This document shows positions 23,421 to 59,100 of a stretch of 64,000 nt of DNA, piece after piece (within the stretch, counting starts at the first letter, position 1; each line of letters starts with the position of its first letter). The notes under the pieces were generated by a model. It ran no database searches. It saw nothing but the letters and a program-made list of their open reading frames with translations, and had not been told where the DNA came from. The stretch lies in the NCBI GenBank assembly GCA_000004985.1, contig GG738858.1. The stretch is one strand, 5' to 3'. The stretch is from Naegleria gruberi. Its lineage: Eukaryota. The translations under genes were made by a program, and so were the position numbers.

Positions 23421-25266
23421 ATGGACAAACACACAACACGAACACAACTTTCACAAAAAGAAGAAGAAACAAATAATTATAAATTTCCGAATGACATTAT
23501 TTATGAAATTATGTCCTTCCTTGATGATTTTAAATTTATTGTCATGAATTGTGCATTAGTGTCCAAACAGTGGTTCAATGTTATTTTATCAACATGTAAT
23601 CATCTTAATTTAAATTGTAAACGTGGTGTTGAAATGGGTGGCCAGTTTTTACAGAATATTGCAATTCTTGATGTTTGTGCCACGAATGATACTTGCAAAA
23701 AATTAATCTCGATGAAATCATTAACTGAACTAATAATTAAATGTGATGATGAAGGATCAGCTAAATTCATAAGCGAATTGAAACAATTAACGAGGCTTAC
23801 TATTGATGCCAGTCATATTCGTGATGAGGGAGTTAGATATATTAGTGAATTGAAACAATTGGCCTACCTTAGTGTTCATAGCAATGATATTTCTGATGAT
23901 GGAGTTAAATATCTAAGAGAATTGAAACAATTGACCACTCTTATTATTTTTAGCAATCGTGTTGGTAGTGAAGGATGTAAATGTATTAGTGAATTGAAAC
24001 AATTGACCTCTCTTTGTATTGATGATAATCATATTAATGATGAAGGAGCAAAGTATTTAAGTGAATTAGCACAATTAACATATCTTGATATTTCAAGCAA
24101 TGGGCTTGGTAATGAAGGAACTAAATACATTAGCACATTGAATCAATTGGAAAAACTTAATATTTCCCAAAATTATATTGGTGATGAAGGACTCGAATAT
24201 TTTGGTAAATTGTCACAATTGACAAGTCTTGAACTTTCATAGCAATGATATTGCTGATGATGGAGTTAAATATCTAAGAGAATTGAAACAATTGACCACT
24301 CTTATTATTTTTAGCAATCGTGTTGGTAGTGAAGGATGTAAATGTATTAGTGAATTGAAACAATTGACCTCTCTTTGTATTGATGATAATCATATTAATG
24401 ATGAAGGAGCAAAGTATTTAAGTGAATTAGCACAATTAACATATCTTGATATTTCAAGCAATGGGCTTGGTAATGAAGGAACTAAATACATTAGCACATT
24501 GAATCAATTGGAAAAACTTAATATTTCCCAAAATTATATTGGTGATGAAGGACTCGAATATTTTGGTAAATTGTCACAATTGACAAGTCTTGAACTTTCT
24601 AACAATAAGATTGGTACTGAAGGAGCTAAATATTTAAGTGAATTGAAACAATTAACCCAACTTGATATTGAATATAATAAGATTGGTGATAAGGGGGCAA
24701 TGTATTTTGGAGAATTGAAACAATTGGTCAATCTAATAATTAATAACAATAGGATTGGTAATGATGGAGTTAAATATATTGGTGAATTAAAACAATTAAT
24801 CTATCTTGATATTTCTGAGAATCGCATTGGCAATGAAGGAATTAAATATATTGGTGAATTGAAACAATTAACCGATGTTAATATTTCTGAGAATCGCATT
24901 GGTAATGAAGGAGCTAAATATATTGGTCAATTATCACAATTGACAAGTCTTTATTTATCTAACAATAATATTGGTAATGAAGGAGCTAAATATATAAGTG
25001 AATTGAAGGAATTGATCTATCTTTATATGAATAACAATAAGATTCGTAATGAGGGAGCTAAATACATAAGTGAAATGAAACAAGTAACCCAACTTGATAT
25101 TGGCAACAATTATATTGGCGAAGAAGGAATAAAATACATAAGTGAAATGAAACAATTAATACATCTTGAAAAATACCAATATAATGAAGAAATGTACAAT
25201 GAAAATGAAGAGGAGTATAATGAAAATGAAGAAGAATACACTGACAATGAGGAGGAGGAGTACTAA
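23421..25266 (+). CDS. F-box-like/RNI-type LRR protein (paralog of 78..2195) disrupted by an internal 361-bp tandem duplication; possible pseudogene or assembly artefact
   Basis: The ATG at 23421 gives MDKHTTRTQLSQKEEETNNYKFPNDIIYEIMSFLDDFKFIVMNCALVSKQWFNVIL. The reading frame hits TAG at 24240-24242, exactly at the duplication junction, and continues in the +1 frame (ORF 24229..25266) through more LRRs. It ends with an acidic YNENEEEY tail like the paralog. Confidence 0.6.
23877..24598 (+). repeat. near-perfect direct tandem duplication, 2 x 361 bp
   Basis: Copy 1 is about 23877..24237 and copy 2 about 24238..24598. They are identical except for one substitution (atttctgat vs attgctgat). 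A unit of 361 is not a multiple of 3, so the duplication creates the in-frame stop. Confidence 0.85.
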
Positions 25267-46275: not shown

Positions 46276-46348
46276 GCCGACATAGCTCAGTTGGGAGAGC
46301 GTAAGACTGAAGATCTTAAGGTCCCTGGTTCGATCCCTGGTGTCGGCA
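46276..46348 (+). tRNA. tRNA-Phe (anticodon GAA)
   Basis: The 73-nt sequence is GCCGACATAGCTCAGTTGGGAGAGCGTAAGACTGAAGATCTTAAGGTCCCTGGTTCGATCCCTGGTGTCGGCA. The acceptor stem GCCGACA pairs with TGTCGGC, the D-arm is GCTC/GAGC, the anticodon stem is TAAGA/TCTTA with loop CTGAAGA, and the T-loop is TTCGATC. The T-stem CCTGG/CCTGG has one central T-T mismatch. It is strongly similar to canonical eukaryotic tRNA-Phe. Confidence 0.9.
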
Positions 46349-51009: not shown

Positions 51010-51515
51010 ACTCTACAATTTCTTTTCATGATTATTCTCTTGTTGCTTTTGACCTTTATTCTCATTAAGATTGAACATAATTCCTTGGCAACTTCTAAAA
51101 AACCAAATAAAAGACTACAGCACCACAGGTTCCCAAGTTGTCTCCAACCTCAGTACTGATGTGGCTCGACGATGCTTAACTTCTCAAATCGGACGGGATG
51201 AGGTGCACTCATCGTGATATGGCCGTAGCCATCAATTTACTTAATTTCTGGAATATTAATCATTTCAACCTTACCTTACTGGCTTCTATCACTTTACATC
51301 TCAAACAAAAGTGAAAGCTCATGTACAACATTGATCTTTGCTCCTATGAAAATTAAATGTTTGGGTGTGAGCTTCAAAATATGAAAGTTACATTTACCAA
51401 AAATATAAATAGATAGCAAGTGAGCTAGAGTGAATGAAATTGTCTCTTGTTCAATCAAAAAAAAAGAAACCTACTGCAATGAATACTCTAGCTATTATGA
51501 TTATTGATTTATTGA

Positions 51516-51867: not shown

Positions 51868-52794
51868 ATGCAACAAGCAAAGAAGAGCCATTTTCAATAC
51901 ATTTCAACGATAGCACACTCGGGATTCATCACTGATGTAAAGATATGCTTGAAACATAATTTATTATTATTAGTTAATTATTCAAGTGGTACGGTGATGG
52001 TACACAACTTGACCACTAGAGAGAAAATGTTTGATGTTAATGTAGGAGGATATTGTTATTATGTAGCCTTGGATTATACTGATCCGGATTGTACATTACC
52101 CTGTATTATATCAACTTCTGATTCTTATGGAGATTGCGGTTTGAGAAAACATTCACTTGATACAAAACAATTGATTTGGAAAGGTCCGTGTACGTTATCT
52201 AGTGCTAGAGGATTGTATGTTGATCAGGAAAAGAAACAAGTATATGTTACTGAGAGAGATAGCGGATTATTGAGAGTTTTTTCATGTGTGGATGGCTCTC
52301 TTGTAACACAATTTAAAGTTGGAGCTGTTACTGATGTCACAATGTCTTTGGGAACTCTTGTTGTTTGTGACAAAGACGCAGGATGTATTAAATTCCTCTC
52401 ACCAACTGATGGATCACTAATTAGAAAGATTGGAGAGAACGGTGAATCGATTGGAAAACTCAATTATCCTAGAGGAGTGATTGTAGATCCAATTACAAGA
52501 AATTTAATTGTTTCAGATTCTGATAATCATAGAATTCAGATATTCACTTGGAATGGAGAATATTTAGAAAGCGTTGGTAAGAAAGGAAGTGGTGAGGCAG
52601 AACTTAACACTCCATTTGGTATCGTTTTGAATAGTATAACAGGTGAATTGTTTGTTTCGGATTGTTACAATTACAGAGTTATTGTATTCAAATATGATAG
52701 TCTCATTTCTGGAAAATCAGAAGTTAGATTCAAGAATATGCTTTCTAAATCCTTGCACGAAAGTCTTTTGTCTGACATTGAGTTTTCACTTTAA
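51868..52794 (+). CDS. NHL-repeat beta-propeller protein
   Basis: 308-aa intronless ORF with NHL-type repeats (PRGVIVDPITRNLIVSDSDNHRIQIF, GIVLNSITGELFVSDCYNYRVIVF, GLYVDQEKKQVYVTERDSGLLRVF). Confidence 0.65.
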   Translation: MQQAKKSHFQYISTIAHSGFITDVKICLKHNLLLLVNYSSGTVMVHNLTTREKMFDVNVGGYCYYVALDYTDPDCTLPCIISTSDSYGDCGLRKHSLDTKQLIWKGPCTLSSARGLYVDQEKKQVYVTERDSGLLRVFSCVDGSLVTQFKVGAVTDVTMSLGTLVVCDKDAGCIKFLSPTDGSLIRKIGENGESIGKLNYPRGVIVDPITRNLIVSDSDNHRIQIFTWNGEYLESVGKKGSGEAELNTPFGIVLNSITGELFVSDCYNYRVIVFKYDSLISGKSEVRFKNMLSKSLHESLLSDIEFSL

Positions 52795-53195: not shown

Positions 53196-56100
53196 TTAAT
53201 TAACTAGTCCTATCGGAACATAGCAAACCAAACCATAAATACCTCCATCAGGAGTAGTAGTAGCCCACCAACCATATGTTGGATAAGATCCCATAAAGTA
53301 AGCATAGGTAATACTATCACCAGATGCTGGATAATAACTACTGTACCAATCCTTATAGACAATGGTACTTCCATCGGACCAAGTTGTGAAGGAGCCTTGG
53401 GAAATTTCATGTCCCTTAGTACCTAAGAAGAAGGCATTGGTTTCATTCTTTGGAAGGAGATTGTTGGCTAAGAATGTCTTTTCTGTGGCACTTTGAATTT
53501 GGACCAATGAAGCGTTTGGATGGAAATACTTGCACAAACTACTCATTGATTCAACGGCATAATAGTTTTGAAGTTTGGTAAAGTAATAACATCTTCCCAA
53601 TGATGTACTACAGCTCATCTTTCTATACCATGGATAATCAACCATGTTGACCTTTGGAGGTAGAGTTGAAGGAGCAGTAATGATACCTGATGGACCTGTA
53701 ATTGTTCCTTGAGAATATTGAGAACCACCAGCAAGGCCAAATTTGATAATACCTTCTGGAATGTCTCCTGCAATCTTGAGTGTGTAAATCTTGTAGGAAC
53801 CTGGTGCAATAGTGTATGAGCTAGGCAATGACAAGTAGGTGAAACCAGTGAGTCCAGTAATTTGATCAGCACCAATGTAAACAGGGAAGCTTGGTGAATA
53901 ATCATGGAAGGCATCTTGGTTGTATCCTGCTTGTAATTCGAGAGTGAATCTAGTAAGTGCAGGTGATCCAGTAGCAACACTAATATTGTATGTGAAAACA
54001 GTAACTGGAGAGGAAGCGTTCAAGAATGTGGCAGTAGAAGAGGTCTTACCCAAATATTTAACAGAGTAACCACTGCTAGCTAATGGAACGAGTACATTGG
54101 TCTTGGATGTGTCAACAATATTACATGAGTTATCAATAATGGTTTGGTAAATGTTACTCAAATCGTTCCAATTTACCAAGACAAGATTATTTTGATCATA
54201 GTTCATCTTTTGTACTTGAATTTGACCATAACTATCCGTTACAGCAGAGCCTATTCCGATAGCAAGCTGTCTCCAATTCCAAACTGAGCCATAGAGTGAC
54301 ATTTCAGCATTATTAGAGCCACCAATTGACCAAGAGTTAATATCAACTGATCTAACAGTGGCATCAGAACATGGATTACAACGAGATCTATCATCATACC
54401 ACGAGCAAACAGTACAATCTGCGCCTGGGAAGCGAGGGCTCTTACAATAGGATGGGGAAACACCATAGTTTCCAGGATTTGATGAATAGGTTGATCTACA
54501 GCTACCACAAGAGCATGGGTCATTTGAGAGACCATCAGTAATGTGAATCAATAACTTTTGAGAAATTGACTTTCTACCAGAGGCCAACATCATATTAACT
54601 GCAGTATTAATACCTGAAATTGAGTTGGTACCAGATTGAATTTGGGCCATATTCTTGATGGCAGTTAAAACACTAGATTGACTTGTACCAGACTTCAAAT
54701 CCAAGTGAGTTGTAATAGTTGAGGCAAATTGAATAATACCAATGTTTGTTCCAGTTGGAGAGATGTTTGATCCAAAGCCTGTTGTCAAATTGGAAGCAAA
54801 GTTCTTCATGTTAACAAAGTTATCAGCTGTAATACTTCCAGAACCGTCAATAACAAATATGATATCCAAGTTAAGACCGCATTGACACTTGGTGTATTGA
54901 ACTGAGACAACAGCTGATGCTGAGGTACCATCTTGATCTGATTGGATACTGTAAACAAACTTTTGAGTATTACAACTTCCAGTAACTGGATAAACTCTGA
55001 TAATTCTATTGTTGGCAGGATCGGCTGGGTTGAGGATGGCTGGAGTGCCTGATGTACAATATGAGGAATCACCTGATGGACAAGAAATTCCAGTGAAAGT
55101 GAATGTACCACCAAGAGAATCATAGTCATTGCTCAACAAACTTGATACAGAGATATCAATATAGGTATTGAATTGTGTTGATACAAAGTCATTGACAGCA
55201 ACAGGAGGAGAAGCAAGAGCTGAAATTCCAACTTGAACATTCTTAGTAATTGGATTTCTTGCATCAGAATCAGAAACAGCTAAAACAAAGTTACAACTTC
55301 CAAGGAATGTTGCTACTCTCAAAAACTTGACTTGATTGCTGGCAATTGTCAAGGATTGAAGAACGGTGCTATTACAAGTTCCAACATCTGCAATACTCTT
55401 CAAAACTAGAGTGTCTGCAGTGTCGGCATCCTTTGAAGATGAGAGAGAAATATAATCAAATGAAATATAATTATTACTAGCTCTAGAAATTGAATAGACA
55501 TAAGTGTAAGCATTCAAGGTTGGAGCTTGATTAGGTTGAGCAATAATAATCTTACAAATGGCAGTTTGTCCAGCAGTGTTTGTCAAAGAATAGGAAGCAT
55601 AACAATCACTATTTGATGATGAGGTACTTGCTGGAGTGTATGTCAATTTACCAGTAGAGGATGAGATGGAACCAACACCATTAAGAGTAGCAGTGTTAGT
55701 GATAGCCATTGTGACTGGTTCAGAACCAACCTTTGCTGTTAAACTTGTCTTTAAAGCATCTTCAAATTGAGTAGCAGCAGAATTCTTTGTAGTGGAAATT
55801 GTGTAATCAAGACATCCGAAAGAATTACCAGTGATTGTAACAGTGTAAGTGTAGGTTGAAGTTAATTGACCATCAGTCAAGGTGAAAGAGAATTGCAAAG
55901 TTCCCAAATAAGTAGTAGCATAAGTAAGCTTTACAGATCCATCAGAGTTCAACAAGACAGAGGCACCAGTGTTTTGAGTAATCATACTAACACTTGAAAC
56001 AGTAACTGTATCACCATCAGCATCACTTGCACCTGTCAATAGATCAGTGAAAGTATAAGTTGGATTGGAATAACTTCTTTCAATGGTGGTAGTCTTTGCA

Positions 56101-59100
56101 CTTCCAGTTGGAGGTGTATTTCTAATGACTACAGACATGGTAGCATAAGTTGCAACTTGAGCACCATCATAACAACTAAACTTAATGGAGTCTGTAACAT
56201 ATCGTGTTCCATTAGAAAGAGTGGTTGTGTAAGAAATTGAGGAGCTTGGTGTGTAAACAAGAGATCCAGTAGTGTAATCCGAAACAGTTGTTGTACCATA
56301 TGAACCTTGACCAACTCCAAACAAAGACAATGAATCGCTATCAGCATCATAACAGTATTGAGAAACAACATTTGTCAAAGACAAAGTGTTCTTCCAACCA
56401 ATAGTTTTAGAGAATGAAGTAGCTTGAGGAGCAGTATTGGTAAAAACAAGGTTAACAGTGGCAATATTAGAGGTGGCAATTTGATCAGTAATGGTGTATT
56501 GGAATGAATCAGTACCTGGACCATTAATGAAGGTATTCATATAGAAAACAGTTACCAAATCACTTTGTAAAACAAGGGCGGTATTACCTGTTGGCAATTG
56601 AGCACTACCAAAGTTAACATTATTCAAATTCAAAGAATTAGAACCCAAACTCATGATAACACCATACATGTTAACAACATTGAAGTTAAGTTGACCATAG
56701 GTAAGGACATGTCCATAGAATGTACCTTGAATACCTGCAGCGCCAACAATCCAGAAAACGTTCAAGTAACTAGCACCATTCTTGAAACTCCAACTAAAGT
56801 TAGCATTCAAATTTGTGGTGGCAACAAAGATAAAAAGACCACTTCCACTCAATTCAATTTTACCATTTCCATTGAGACCTTGAGAGAAACAATATACACC
56901 TGGAGTAAATGACAAAACACCTGAAGATGGGAAGTTTTGATCAAGAGAGGCAACACAAGACTTTTGTGAAAGATATTGGTAGAGATTTGAGGCAGATGTA
57001 ACAACAGATGAGTAGGCAGCGTTGTTGACACTCAAAGTACCAGTTGGTTTAAGAGCTTGAGCAGTGAAACCAGCAGTGGCAACGCTTCCAGGAACAACCA
57101 AATTGGCAAAGTTATTACAAATGGTTGAACCCTTAGAAATAACAATGTAATCTCCGATACCATTGTATGAACTGACTAAGCTTGATGGATATAACTTGTT
57201 AATATAAATATAATCACCATCAACATCATAATCGTTCAAAACAGGTTTCAAATACAAGGTATTATTGGTCCAGTGTTGAGTGAATGTATTATCAACAGCA
57301 ACAGGAGGAGTATTAGTAATGGTAATGGTAACAGTATTGGTAACACTTGAGAAACCATCAGTTACAACATAGGTGAATGAAGTAGTGAACCCAGCAGTTA
57401 GAGGAACTGGTGTGTACTTGACAAAAGTGGAATTAACAGAAGCAACAGCACCAGTATTTGGTTGAGTGAATGAAACAATGGTCAATGAATCACCATCAGC
57501 ATCAGTAACTCCAGACATCAAATCAATACTGAGGCCACTTTGAACCTTAGCCCAGTGACGACTGAATGTTAATGGAGTTGCTGTAGGAGCGCTATTGGAA
57601 ATAGTAACAAAGATTCCCTTTGATGCAGAAACTCCCATTCCATCAGTTACAGTATAGTTGAAGAATTGTGATGCAGAGTTTCCATTAGAATTGGTGAATG
57701 TGAATGATTTCTTGTCACCACTCAAAGCAACAGTACCTGCACTTGGATTAGTGAATGATGAAATAACAAGATAGTCTCCATCCTCAGTATCAGCATCAGT
57801 TGGCTTGAGAGAATCAGCTCTACCAATAACTGGAATAGAAATTGAGGAAGTGTGACCAGATACAACAATATCTTTAGCAACTGGAAGATTGTTATAGATA
57901 ACAATGCTGAATGTTGCACTTGAAGTGGACCACCCATCAGTGAATGAAACAGTAACGGAATCAGTACCAGTGTAAGCACTATTGACCTTATAGTTAATGG
58001 TGTTTCCTGAACCAAGAGAAGCAACACCAACCAGTGTCTTTGTGACAGCAGTTAAGGTAACAGCATCACCATCAGCATCCTTAAGATAGGAAGAAAGATC
58101 AATAACAGTATTACTCAAAACAGTTCTCCAGTGATATTTGAAAGCTGCAGTAGTATTGGCTGTTGGAACACTATTCAAAATTGTAATGGAAACAGTACCA
58201 GTGACTGTATCTCTTCCATCAGTGATAATATAACTGATTGGGTTGATACTACCAACAAAACCACTGGAAGGAGTGAATTTTACATTTCCAGAGCAAGTGA
58301 CACTACCTTGAGCTGCAGTAACAGATGAAGAGCATGATTGTAATGATAATGAATCTCCATTAGCATCTGAAGAAGCAGAAACAACTTCAAATGTTAAACC
58401 ATTCTTAGCTGAAGACCAAGAACCGACAAATGATTGTGAATTTGTTGTTGGAGCAGTATTGGTAACAGTAACAGTAACAGTTGATGTTGAAGTGGCAATC
58501 TCATCAGTGATTGTATAGTATACAGTATCTGTAGATGGAGCAGTTCTTGGATAGTAAGTAATGTTGGTTGAGGTAAATGTTGGTGACAAAGGAGCTAATG
58601 AACCATAAACATTAGTAACTCTCAATGGATCAGACTCAGCATCAGTATCGTTAGCAACAACATTCAAAGTGTAAGAAGCAACGTTCCAGTGAGTAGTGAG
58701 CTTATCTGGAACAGCTACTGGGGCAGTATTGTAAACAATCAAGTTGACAGTTGTGGTAACTTGACCGTTTGAAGCACCATCAGTAACAATGTACTTGAAT
58801 GAAAGTGAACCCACAAAGTTTCCAGAACCAAGGATTTTGACAGACTTGCTATCCAAAACAGTTACGGAACCAACACTTGGTTGAGAAGCAATTGAAACCA
58901 AACTCAATGAGTCGCCATCAGTATCATAATCAGCTGGAGCATAATTTAAGATATCAATTTCAATACCTGCCTTGAAAGTTCTCCATGGAACTGAAATAGT
59001 CTTGGTTTGAGAAGTTGGAGCGTTGTTTACAACAGTTACAGAGATTGAACTAGTTGAGCTCTTCATAGAGTCAGAAACTCTGTAGTTAGCAGTGTAAACA

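What the first reader, a model, noticed from the sequence alone, without database searches (positions are those of the whole stretch)
56529..57167. Ice-binding-protein-like (DUF3494) domain inside a eukaryotic giant adhesin
The segment carries the hallmark N(I/V)(I/F)W(V/I)VG(A)A...G and LTPG(V/L)Y motifs of the DUF3494 IBP beta-helix fold. This fold is otherwise known from fungal and bacterial antifreeze proteins and from bacterial surface adhesins. Embedding it in a cadherin-repeat adhesin is unusual and may reflect domain acquisition from bacteria or fungi.
Basis: partly seen in the sequence, partly recalled or inferred. Interest (0 to 1): 0.75.

Follow-up and report, generated by a model that had tools for sequence, protein, structure and literature searches.

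The report
Ice-binding-type domain nested in amoeba adhesin
A giant surface protein of the soil amoeba Naegleria gruberi carries a genuine DUF3494 ("ice-binding-like") beta-helix domain spliced into a loop of one of its cadherin-like stalk repeats, most likely as a sideways-projecting binding module rather than an antifreeze.

Summary
Window 56601-57182 (minus strand) encodes a real DUF3494/PF11999 domain: Pfam 33.4 bits against a 28.7 cut-off, hits to solved ice-binding proteins, and a confident AlphaFold model whose 31 best PDB matches are all DUF3494 structures.

The host is eukaryotic. Three window ORFs are exact Naegleria gruberi proteins. The host gene is an open reading frame of more than 3600 aa with about 28 cadherin-like repeats, a VWA domain and a weak C-type-lectin-like end.

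New points:
- The domain is inserted in a loop of repeat 25. Removing it leaves a complete repeat.
- A 2816-aa paralog has the same split. The two proteins share 55-86% identity from repeat 24 to about aa 3480, but only 14-42% in the stalk.
- The domain belongs to a small diverged subfamily seen only in N. gruberi and Naegleria-like metagenome contigs. It also occurs in a PhoPQ-related hydrolase, an EGF/REJ protein and a subtilase.

DUF3494 joined to Ig-like repeats is already common in bacteria, so the pairing itself is not unusual. A horizontal origin is plausible, but the donor is unresolved. The most likely function is ligand or surface binding at the tip of an adhesin; ice binding is unlikely in this temperate soil and freshwater amoeba. 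Interest is moderate.

The parts
53196..64000 (-). Giant ORF (>3600 aa, 5' end outside the window) of Naegleria gruberi. Layout: cadherin-like stalk, split repeat with DUF3494 insert, further repeats, VWA, C-type-lectin-like end.
   Evidence: No stop in 3600 codons. Pfam Big_9, Cadherin_4, Cadherin_5 and VWA. Neighbouring ORFs are exact N. gruberi proteins.
57321..63962 (-). Stalk: 24 tandem cadherin-like (Big_9/Cadherin_4/Cadherin_5) extender repeats of about 91 aa, with a conserved D-x-D-G-D motif (aa 13-2226).
   Evidence: HMM built from the protein's own repeats. AlphaFold model of repeat 24 has pLDDT 94.5. Best PDB folds are cadherin-like domains.
57183..57314 (-). N-terminal half of split repeat 25 (aa 2229-2272), ending ...DGDYIYINKLYPS.
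   Evidence: Matches repeat-HMM positions 1-48 at 40.8 bits.
56601..57182 (-). DUF3494 (PF11999, ice-binding-like) beta-solenoid domain inserted in a loop of repeat 25 (aa ~2273-2466).
   Evidence: Pfam 33.4 bits vs GA 28.7. PDB phmmer hits are ice-binding proteins. AlphaFold pLDDT is 86-97 over aa 2271-2469. Top 31 Foldseek PDB hits are all DUF3494 structures.
56967..57020 (-). Long alpha-helix lying alongside the beta-helix (aa 2327-2344, AAYSSVVTSASNLYQYLS). It is followed by Cys2348, which is invariant across the 9-sequence alignment.
   Evidence: DSSP helix 103-120 of the model. C71 and C93 are invariant columns in alignment A1.
56886..56909 (-). FTPGVYCF motif (family hallmark TPGVYCF), containing the second invariant Cys.
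56724..56762 (-). NVFWIVGAAGIQG motif (family hallmark NVFWxVGSSATLG).
56439..56600 (-). C-terminal half of split repeat 25 (aa 2467-2520), starting LPTGNTALVLQSD...
   Evidence: Matches the repeat HMM to position 89 at 27.3 bits. The spliced repeat aligns end to end with 22 regular repeats.
55836..56438 (-). Two further complete extender repeats (aa 2521-2721) inside the region conserved with the paralog.
54906..55532 (-). Two more diverged cadherin-like repeats (aa 2823-3031) preceding the VWA domain.
54519..54866 (-). VWA domain (aa 3045-3160) with a DGSGS (DxSxS) MIDAS-type motif, followed by a Cys-rich stretch.
   Evidence: Pfam VWA 85.3 bits. Nearest solved relatives are collagen VI, integrin I domains and MIC2. 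The motif is read from the translation.
53316..53546 (-). Weak C-type-lectin-like segment near the C-terminus (aa 3485-3561).
   Evidence: Pfam Lectin_C 21.3 bits, just below GA 22.6, E 4.6e-4.

Best explanation
The segment encodes a genuine but diverged DUF3494 (PF11999) right-handed beta-solenoid with its flanking alpha-helix. It is inserted into a surface loop of the 25th cadherin-like extender repeat of a giant (>3600 aa) extracellular protein of Naegleria gruberi. The paralog P0002 has an N-terminal hydrophobic anchor, so by analogy the protein is probably a type II membrane protein: a long, probably Ca2+-stiffened stalk carrying a conserved distal region at its C-terminal end. That region comprises the split repeat with the DUF3494 insert, a few more repeats, a MIDAS-bearing VWA domain and a lectin-like end. 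In this layout the DUF3494 domain projects sideways from the stalk and most likely acts as a non-enzymatic ligand- or surface-binding module, for example for substrate, prey bacteria, polysaccharide or another regular surface. This is the way 'split domains' present ligand-binding domains in bacterial RTX adhesins. Shown here: domain identity, fold, nesting, host organism, paralog conservation, and reuse of the module in other proteins that appear secreted. Inferred: membrane anchoring of this copy, Ca2+ binding, and adhesion or ligand binding with an unknown ligand. The domain family is overwhelmingly prokaryotic, so the Naegleria lineage probably gained it horizontally long ago and then shuffled it; the donor is unresolved.
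For: Identity and fold:
- Pfam scores above the gathering cut-off.
- PDB sequence hits are only ice-binding proteins.
- There are 117 homologs in the exhaustive search.
- AlphaFold core pLDDT is 86-97 with helix 103-120.
- The top 31 Foldseek PDB hits are all DUF3494 (E 2e-8 to 1e-5, target TM 0.57-0.74); the next hit has E 0.43.

Nesting:
- The own-repeat HMM matches positions 1-48 before the insert and up to position 89 after it.
- With the insert removed, the repeat aligns gap-free at the junction with 22 regular repeats.
- The site maps to the loop TQPNTG between two strands of a repeat modelled at pLDDT 94.5.
- The first and last coils of the DUF3494 fold are adjacent (PMC11645318 abstract), which suits insertion into a loop.

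Host:
- Three window ORFs are exact N. gruberi proteins.
- Neighbouring genes are eukaryotic in type: F-box/LRR, DUF4116, and a lone 5S rRNA gene.

Functional importance:
- The paralog P0002 has the same split.
- It shares 68% identity in the insert and 55-86% from repeat 24 to about aa 3480, against 14-42% in the stalk.
- The same pattern (conserved ligand-binding region, variable extenders) is described for RTX adhesins.

Binding-module behaviour:
- The same subfamily domain is attached to a PhoPQ-related hydrolase, an EGF/REJ protein, a subtilase and a small apparently secreted protein. All have signal-peptide-like or anchor-like N-termini where the N-terminus is seen.
- Elsewhere DUF3494 pairs with Ig-like domains, S8 proteases and EGF.
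- The literature suggests that DUF3494 proteins outside icy habitats may bind surfaces other than ice (PMC11645318).
Against: - No binding experiment exists and no ligand is known.
- The only function ever demonstrated for DUF3494 is ice binding.
- The AlphaFold alignment was dominated by canonical bacterial DUF3494 proteins, so the model leans toward that fold. Homology nevertheless stands on sequence alone.
- The model did not resolve the two halves of the split repeat (pLDDT <50), so the nested geometry rests on HMM and alignment evidence, not on a 3-D model.
- The N-terminus of this copy is outside the window, so its anchoring is only inferred from the paralog.
- Signal peptides and the transmembrane segment were read by eye, not predicted with a tool.
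- A whole-protein Pfam scan did not list PF11999, which shows the match is weak in context.
Confidence: 0.6

Rival explanations
1. It is a working ice-binding domain. The giant protein would be a eukaryotic ice adhesin or cell-surface ice-recrystallisation inhibitor, analogous to Shewanella SfIBP_1 or Marinomonas MpIBP, protecting or anchoring amoebae or cysts in freezing soil and water.
For: - Ice binding is the only experimentally shown activity of the family, and all structural neighbours are ice-binding proteins.
- Bacterial ice adhesins likewise combine an ice-binding domain with Ig-like tethers (PMC9957290; PMC5550230 listed).
- The domain is almost free of charged residues (4%).
Against: - N. 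gruberi is not known as an ice-associated organism (general knowledge).
- DUF3494 proteins often occur in warmer climates, and in hundreds of other bacteria their function is unknown (PMC11645318).
- The low charge is typical of the whole homolog set (mean 6.6%), so it does not discriminate.
- The Naegleria subfamily is Thr-poor (4-8% vs 14%) and has no T-[AG]-x-[TN] match inside the insert, against a median of 2 in other homologs. That motif is recalled from the FfIBP/LeIBP literature, so this is weak evidence.
- The NCBIfam ice-binding equivalog scores 16.8 against a cut-off of 400.
- The same domain is fused to a protease and a hydrolase, which fits a general targeting module better.
Confidence: 0.12
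2. The insert is a structural relic or spacer with no binding role, carried along in the gene after an old insertion.
For: No ligand is known. The Pfam score is only just above threshold, showing strong divergence from canonical family members.
Against: - The 582-nt insert is open and in frame within a 10.8-kb ORF.
- It is 68% identical to the paralog's copy, while stalk repeats are 14-42% identical.
- Family-invariant residues (two Cys, G, W, F) are kept.
- The same subfamily domain is retained in at least five different architectures.
Confidence: 0.1
3. The beta-helix is catalytic, for example a polysaccharide lyase- or hydrolase-like beta-helix, rather than a binding module.
For: Many right-handed beta-helices are carbohydrate-active enzymes. 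Weak Foldseek matches to family 3 pectate lyase appear in the list.
Against: Those matches have E>3 and TM<0.25, while DUF3494 matches have E<=1e-5. No enzyme family is hit in Pfam. No catalytic activity has been described for DUF3494 in the papers read.
Confidence: 0.04
4. The gene is bacterial contamination or an assembly chimera, not an amoebal gene.
For: The repeat families are named 'bacterial' in Pfam (Big_9, Cadherin_4), and DUF3494 is mostly prokaryotic.
Against: - The gene lies on the same contig as exact N. gruberi proteins, one of which ends only ~400 bp away (51868-52791), and near a 5S rRNA gene at 51112-51230.
- GC content is similar to the rest of the window (0.37-0.385 vs 0.29-0.36).
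- A paralog and two other genes carrying the domain sit on other N. gruberi scaffolds.
- The nearest solved relatives of the VWA domain are eukaryotic.
- There is no RTX or T1SS end.
Confidence: 0.01

Closest known systems
DUF3494 / PF11999 ice-binding proteins with solved structures (TisAFP 3vn3, LeIBP 3uyu, FfIBP 4nu2, ColAFP 3wp9, AnpIBP 7bwx, EfcIBP 6eio, IBPv 5uyt)
   Same: Homologous sequence. Same predicted fold: triangular right-handed beta-solenoid with a long alpha-helix alongside. Conserved TPGVYCF and NVFWxVG motifs and a conserved Cys pair.
   Different: Only 13-25% identity in the structural alignments. The first coil is diverged (YIVISKGSTICNN instead of FAVLAGxxVTNTG). The domain is Thr-poor and Asn-rich. 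It is not a free secreted protein but is nested in a repeat of a giant protein. The host is a temperate soil/freshwater amoeba, and no ice activity is known.
Bacterial multidomain DUF3494 proteins with Ig-like tethers, e.g. Shewanella frigidimarina SfIBP_1 (PDB 6bg8) and the Arctic metagenome architectures of PMC9957290
   Same: A DUF3494 domain combined with tandem Ig-like or cell-adhesion repeats on a surface protein. Such partners are the commonest in prokaryotes and are seen among the hits here.
   Different: In the bacterial examples scanned here, DUF3494 sits beside the repeats; nesting was not specifically looked for in bacteria. Here it interrupts a repeat. The host is eukaryotic, and the protein also carries a VWA domain whose closest solved relatives are eukaryotic, plus a lectin-like end.
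Bacterial RTX fibrillar adhesins with 'split domains' (MpIBP, V. cholerae FrhA 9y9w, Lap-type adhesins; bioRxiv 10.1101/2025.09.30.679566)
   Same: The same blueprint: membrane-proximal N-terminus, a long run of Ig-like extenders, and a distal C-terminal ligand-binding region in which a split extender projects a ligand-binding domain and a vWFA domain follows. The ligand-binding region is conserved while extenders vary between isoforms. The FrhA split domain appears among the fold matches of the repeat (rank 40).
   Different: There is no RTX beta-roll or T1SS signal (no GGxGxD). The N-terminus of this copy is unseen, and the paralog has a transmembrane anchor instead of a retention module. 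The insertion point is mid-domain rather than after the first strand or before the last two strands. It is eukaryotic. This is a functional analogy, not family membership.
Eukaryotic DUF3494 proteins acquired horizontally (snow and sea-ice algae, diatoms, fungi; e.g. Chlamydomonas sp. ICE-MDV IBP, P0122)
   Same: A eukaryote carrying a mainly prokaryotic domain with patchy distribution. Horizontal transfer is the accepted explanation in those lineages (PMC6892780, PMC7783341).
   Different: Those organisms live with ice, and their proteins are mostly one or two free DUF3494 domains. The Naegleria domains form their own small clade and did not group with the Chlamydomonas sequence in the neighbour-joining tree.

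Membership tests
DUF3494 / Pfam PF11999 (Ice_binding) | Sequence match to the family profile at or above the curated gathering score | tested here: met
   31.6 bits on the 300-aa piece and 33.4 bits on the domain alone, against GA 28.7. The paralog scores 39.7 bits. Not listed when the whole 3600-aa protein is scanned.
DUF3494 / Pfam PF11999 (Ice_binding) | Right-handed triangular beta-solenoid with a long alpha-helix packed alongside | tested here: met
   AlphaFold core pLDDT 86-97 with helix 103-120. The 31 best PDB matches are all DUF3494 structures, then a gap to E 0.43. Caveat: the alignment was dominated by canonical family members.
DUF3494 / Pfam PF11999 (Ice_binding) | Coverage of the whole domain, including the first coil | tested here: inconclusive
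   Pfam aligns only profile positions 48-195 of 208. MAFFT aligns YIVISKGSTICNN with the canonical first coil, and the model is confident there.
DUF3494 / Pfam PF11999 (Ice_binding) | Conserved Cys pair (end of helix, and GVYCF) and the NVFW motif | tested here: met
   C71, C93, F94 and W139 are invariant in the 9-sequence alignment of Naegleria-type and bacterial members.
Functional ice-binding proteins (antifreeze or ice adhesin) | Measured ice binding (thermal hysteresis, ice shaping, recrystallisation inhibition) | not testable with these tools
   Needs recombinant protein.
Functional ice-binding proteins (antifreeze or ice adhesin) | Thr-rich flat face / T-[AG]-x-[TN] rows reported for FfIBP and LeIBP (recalled from the literature, not a strict rule) | tested here: not met
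   No match inside the insert; other homologs have a median of 2. Thr is 6.6% here against 14.3% elsewhere.
NCBIfam NF045625 IBP_CFB (ice-binding protein equivalog) | Score at or above the curated cut-off | tested here: not met
   16.8 bits against a cut-off of 400.
Bacterial RTX adhesins | Tandem Ig-like extender repeats | tested here: met
   About 28 repeats by the own-repeat HMM. Pfam Big_9, Cadherin_4 and Cadherin_5.
Bacterial RTX adhesins | Split extender domain from which a ligand-binding domain projects, followed by vWFA | tested here: met
   Split repeat 25 with the DUF3494 insert. VWA lies downstream.
Bacterial RTX adhesins | [quoted passage not shown] | tested here: not met
   No GGxGxD nonapeptides. 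No RTX family in Pfam.
Bacterial RTX adhesins | N-terminal periplasmic retention module | not testable with these tools
   The N-terminus lies outside the window. The paralog P0002 starts with a hydrophobic transmembrane-like segment instead.
Classical (metazoan) cadherins | PF00028 extracellular cadherin repeats | tested here: not met
   Only Cadherin_3/4/5 and Big_9 are matched, not PF00028. The fold is nonetheless cadherin-like.

The most novel reading that the evidence does not exclude
The insert is a working ice-binding module. That would make this the first eukaryotic 'ice adhesin': a membrane-anchored stalk that holds a temperate soil amoeba or its cyst to ice, or controls ice growth at the cell surface. 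It would be built on the same extender / split-domain / ligand-binding blueprint as bacterial RTX ice adhesins.
Probability: 0.1. Interest if true: 0.75.

Novelty: new variant of a known kind. Interest (0 to 1): 0.4.

Why it matters
DUF3494 is the commonest microbial ice-binding fold, yet it is also found in hundreds of bacteria outside icy habitats, where its function is unknown (PMC11645318). Here the domain sits in a culturable, non-ice-associated eukaryote. Its context points to a role:
- it lies in the conserved distal part of a giant stalked surface protein, near a MIDAS-type VWA domain and a lectin-like end;
- the same module is fused to an apparently secreted hydrolase, to a subtilase and to an EGF/REJ protein.

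That offers a concrete system for testing the idea that DUF3494 is a general surface-binding module.

It also shows that the 'split extender presenting a ligand-binding domain' design described for bacterial RTX adhesins exists in a eukaryote.

A practical point: whole-protein Pfam scans miss the domain in both giant paralogs, so routine annotation probably overlooks such nested copies.

Tried and rejected
- **Word-indexed homolog searches.** A search with the domain alone gave a single hit. A search with a Naegleria-subfamily profile returned only P0009 and bacterial proteins, not the N. gruberi paralogs. It therefore could not give the taxonomic spread of the subfamily.
- **The search for related loci on bacterial/archaeal genomes.** No named donor taxa were obtained.
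- **The listing of cluster members on the nearest non-Naegleria neighbours.** It gave no organism names.
- **AFDB fold search.** Not available. It would have shown whether N. fowleri or other eukaryotes have the domain.
- **Modelling the nested unit.**
  - The first AlphaFold job resolved the insert but not the split-repeat halves.
  - Composite alignments adding the window's own repeats, whole or as halves, were misaligned by MAFFT.
  - I used the second job on a regular repeat to map the insertion loop instead.
- **Charge content.** Considered as a possible ice-binding signature and rejected, because low charge is general to the homolog set.
- **Chance resemblance and contamination.** Both considered and rejected.
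Full report
**1. What is at the coordinates**

The finding lies on the minus strand inside one very long open reading frame. The frame runs from the stop codon at 53196 past the window end at 64000: 3600 codons with no stop. The quoted motifs are present: FTPGVYCF at 56886-56909 and NVFWIVGAAGIQG at 56724-56762.

**2. Is it a DUF3494 domain?**

Yes, on four independent lines of evidence.
- **Pfam.** PF11999 (Ice_binding) scores 31.6 bits (E 1.6e-7) on a 300-aa piece and 33.4 bits (E 4.7e-8) on the domain alone. Both exceed the gathering score of 28.7.
- **Solved structures, by sequence.** phmmer against all PDB sequences returns only ice-binding proteins: Antarctomyces AnpIBP 7bwx at E 3.7e-6 and Flavobacterium FfIBP 4nu2 at E 4.9e-4.
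- **Exhaustive homolog search.** A search of 1.84 billion representatives returns 117 proteins at E<=1e-3. Pfam scans of samples of them show PF11999.
- **Predicted structure.** An AlphaFold model of aa 2225-2515, built with a 98-row alignment, has pLDDT 86-97 over aa ~2271-2469. It has a long helix (aa 2327-2344) and stacked strands. Its 31 best Foldseek matches in the PDB are all DUF3494 structures, including TisAFP, LeIBP, FfIBP, ColAFP, IBPv, SfIBP_1 and AnpIBP. They have E 2e-8 to 1e-5 and target TM 0.57-0.74. The next match has E 0.43.

One caveat applies to the model. The alignment was dominated by canonical bacterial members, so the model leans toward their fold. The sequence evidence does not share this problem.

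The NCBIfam equivalog for characterised Bacteroidota ice-binding proteins is far from matched: 16.8 bits against a cut-off of 400.

**3. Host organism and host protein**

Three other ORFs of the window are exact matches to Naegleria gruberi predicted proteins EFC46474, EFC46460 and EFC46465, on a 782-kb scaffold. Neighbouring genes are typically eukaryotic: F-box/LRR, HEAT, DUF4116, CLC, a lone 5S rRNA gene and a tRNA-Phe. The window is therefore N. gruberi itself, and contamination is excluded.

The giant protein has the following features.
- About 28 tandem repeats of ~91 aa, matched by Pfam Big_9, Cadherin_4 and Cadherin_5.
- A regular repeat that models at pLDDT 94.5 as a cadherin-like beta-sandwich. 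Its best PDB matches are the cadherin-like domains of GH107 fucoidanases, cadherin-23 and protocadherins.
- A VWA domain downstream at aa 3045-3160, with a DGSGS MIDAS-type motif. Its nearest solved relatives are collagen VI and integrin I domains.
- A weak C-type-lectin-like end: 21.3 bits against a gathering score of 22.6.
- No transmembrane-grade hydrophobic stretch and no RTX nonapeptide in the visible 3600 aa.

**4. The domain is nested in a repeat**

An HMM built from the protein's own repeats matches aa 2229-2276 to positions 1-48 (40.8 bits). It resumes after the insert and runs to position 89, ending at aa 2516 (27.3 bits). The true match restarts at LPTGNTALVLQSD.

When aa 2273-2467 are removed, the remaining sequence aligns end to end with 22 regular repeats and has no gap at the junction. 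The junction PS|LPTGN corresponds to TQPNTG in the neighbouring repeat.

In the confident model of repeat 24, that stretch is the loop between strands 43-47 and 54-57. The DUF3494 fold begins and ends at the same end of the solenoid (PMC11645318 abstract), which suits insertion into a loop.

The first AlphaFold model did not resolve the two repeat halves (pLDDT <50). The nesting therefore rests on HMM and alignment evidence rather than on a 3-D model.

**5. Paralogs and the subfamily**

The best hit in the exhaustive search is N. gruberi XP_002672240 (P0002, 2816 aa), encoded on another scaffold. It is 70% identical over the domain. It has the same Big_9/Cadherin and VWA architecture and the same split repeat.

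A collinear alignment of the two giants covers window aa 931-3592. It shows that identity is unevenly distributed:

| Region | Identity to P0002 |
|---|---|
| Stalk repeats | 14-42% |
| Repeat 24 to about aa 3480 overall | 55-86% |
| DUF3494 insert | 68% |
| Split-repeat halves | 86% and 78% |
| VWA | 67% |

P0002 starts with a hydrophobic, transmembrane-like segment (read by eye). These proteins are therefore probably type II membrane proteins with the conserved region at the far end of the stalk.

The same diverged domain type has the signature ISKG..VPGSxAT ... GVYCFPQGLNG ... TNLN ... NGAxxNxFW. It occurs in several other proteins:
- N. gruberi XP_002675978: PhoPQ-related hydrolase plus a C-terminal DUF3494, with a signal peptide.
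- N. gruberi XP_002682683: EGF, then DUF3494, then REJ/PKD.
- Metagenomic contigs that look Naegleria-like. One carries a histone H4 gene at GC 0.34. Another has a DUF4116 neighbour and encodes a subtilase fused to the domain.

Only seven representatives reach E<=1e-10. Six are of this eukaryotic type. The seventh (P0005) is a bacterial protein with six DUF3494 copies, on a contig carrying GGDEF and PAS genes.

**6. Origin**

The family is overwhelmingly prokaryotic. A profile search returned 7992 scoring proteins, mostly named as bacterial ice-binding-family proteins. Pfam lists mainly prokaryotic members (PMC9957290).

In a neighbour-joining tree of 275 domains, the N. gruberi sequences plus one metagenomic relative form a clade with 62% bootstrap support. 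Their sister is a single unnamed metagenomic protein. The Chlamydomonas ice-binding protein in the tree does not group with them. No fungal sequences were available to include.

Ancient horizontal acquisition followed by domain shuffling within the Naegleria lineage is the most economical reading, but the donor is not identified. The closest solved relatives of the VWA domain are eukaryotic proteins. This argues against wholesale transfer of a bacterial adhesin gene, although the PDB is biased toward eukaryotic VWA domains.

**7. Function**

The layout parallels the design described for bacterial RTX adhesins: anchor, variable extender stalk, then a conserved distal region with a split extender presenting a domain, followed by VWA and a lectin-like end. 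In those adhesins, split extenders project ligand-binding domains away from the axis, and the ligand-binding region is conserved while extenders vary (bioRxiv 10.1101/2025.09.30.679566).

The same domain is also fused to a protease, a hydrolase and an EGF/REJ protein, all apparently secreted or surface-exposed where the N-terminus is seen. Together these points favour a non-enzymatic ligand- or surface-binding module.

Ice binding cannot be excluded, but it is less likely for four reasons.
- The host is not known as an ice-associated organism.
- The subfamily is Thr-poor and Asn-rich.
- It lacks the T-[AG]-x-[TN] pattern within the insert (weak evidence).
- The very low charge of the domain is shared by the whole homolog set, so it does not discriminate.

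**8. Comparison with what is known, and novelty**

DUF3494 combined with Ig-like or cell-adhesion repeats is the commonest multidomain arrangement in prokaryotes (PMC9957290). It recurs among the hits here.

No paper in the searched library mentions DUF3494 together with Naegleria. The one paper that holds both 'Naegleria' and 'ice-binding' is a general perspective on protists in extreme environments; I did not open it.

The new elements are:
- the eukaryotic host, which is not ice-associated;
- the insertion into a loop of a cadherin-like extender;
- the lineage-specific subfamily reused in several architectures.

Whole-protein Pfam scans of both giant paralogs do not list PF11999, so routine annotation is likely to miss it.

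I rate this a new variant of a known kind, of moderate interest.

Noticed in passing
window 53199-63998 (-) compared with P0002 (N. gruberi XP_002672240): There is a sharp identity step between the two giant paralogs. Stalk repeats are 14-42% identical, but everything from repeat 24 (aa 2135) to about aa 3480 is 55-86% identical. This is the same 'variable extenders, conserved ligand-binding region' pattern described for bacterial RTX adhesins.
   Followed up: yes
window 53196-64000 (-), whole-protein Pfam scan: PF11999 is not listed when the full 3600-aa protein, or the full paralog, is scanned, although the excised domain passes the gathering score. Nested DUF3494 copies in giant repeat proteins are probably missed by routine annotation.
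   Followed up: partly
window 54030-54518 (-), aa 3161-3323: Directly after the VWA match (profile positions 1-117 of 174) comes a Cys-rich stretch (CSCGSCRS...CKSPRFPGADCTVCSW...CNPCSD). It may be an insertion within the VWA fold. There is no Pfam match, and identity to the paralog is 62%.
   Followed up: no
window 55533-55835 (-), aa 2722-2822, and 53559-54128 (-), aa 3291-3480: Two segments of the conserved distal region have no Pfam family but are 55-58% identical to the paralog. They may be further uncharacterised ligand-binding domains.
   Followed up: no
window 51112-51230 (-) and 46276-46348 (+): A stand-alone 5S rRNA gene (103 bits) and a tRNA-Phe(GAA) gene lie among the protein-coding genes.
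   Followed up: no
window 19966-21636 (-): A 557-aa protein made of DUF4116 repeats (184.7 bits). A DUF4116 protein also neighbours the subtilase-DUF3494 gene on metagenomic contig L003. I took this, together with a similar GC content and a histone H4 gene on L001, as a hint that those contigs come from Naegleria-like organisms.
   Followed up: partly
L003 860-2738 (+): The subtilase-DUF3494 gene is called as two products: P0007 (560 aa) and a 71-aa fragment carrying the end of the DUF3494 domain. This suggests an intron or a frameshift in that metagenomic contig.
   Followed up: no
L004 1931-5205 (+): The nearest non-Naegleria neighbour in the neighbour-joining tree (P0024) sits in tandem with a second DUF3494 gene (660 aa), next to a gene with a faint MORN_2 match. 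The organism is unknown.
   Followed up: no
window 23385-24242 (+) and 24229-25266 (+): Two long ORFs on the same strand overlap by 14 nt in different frames. This could be a frameshift, a short intron, or two exons of one gene.
   Followed up: no
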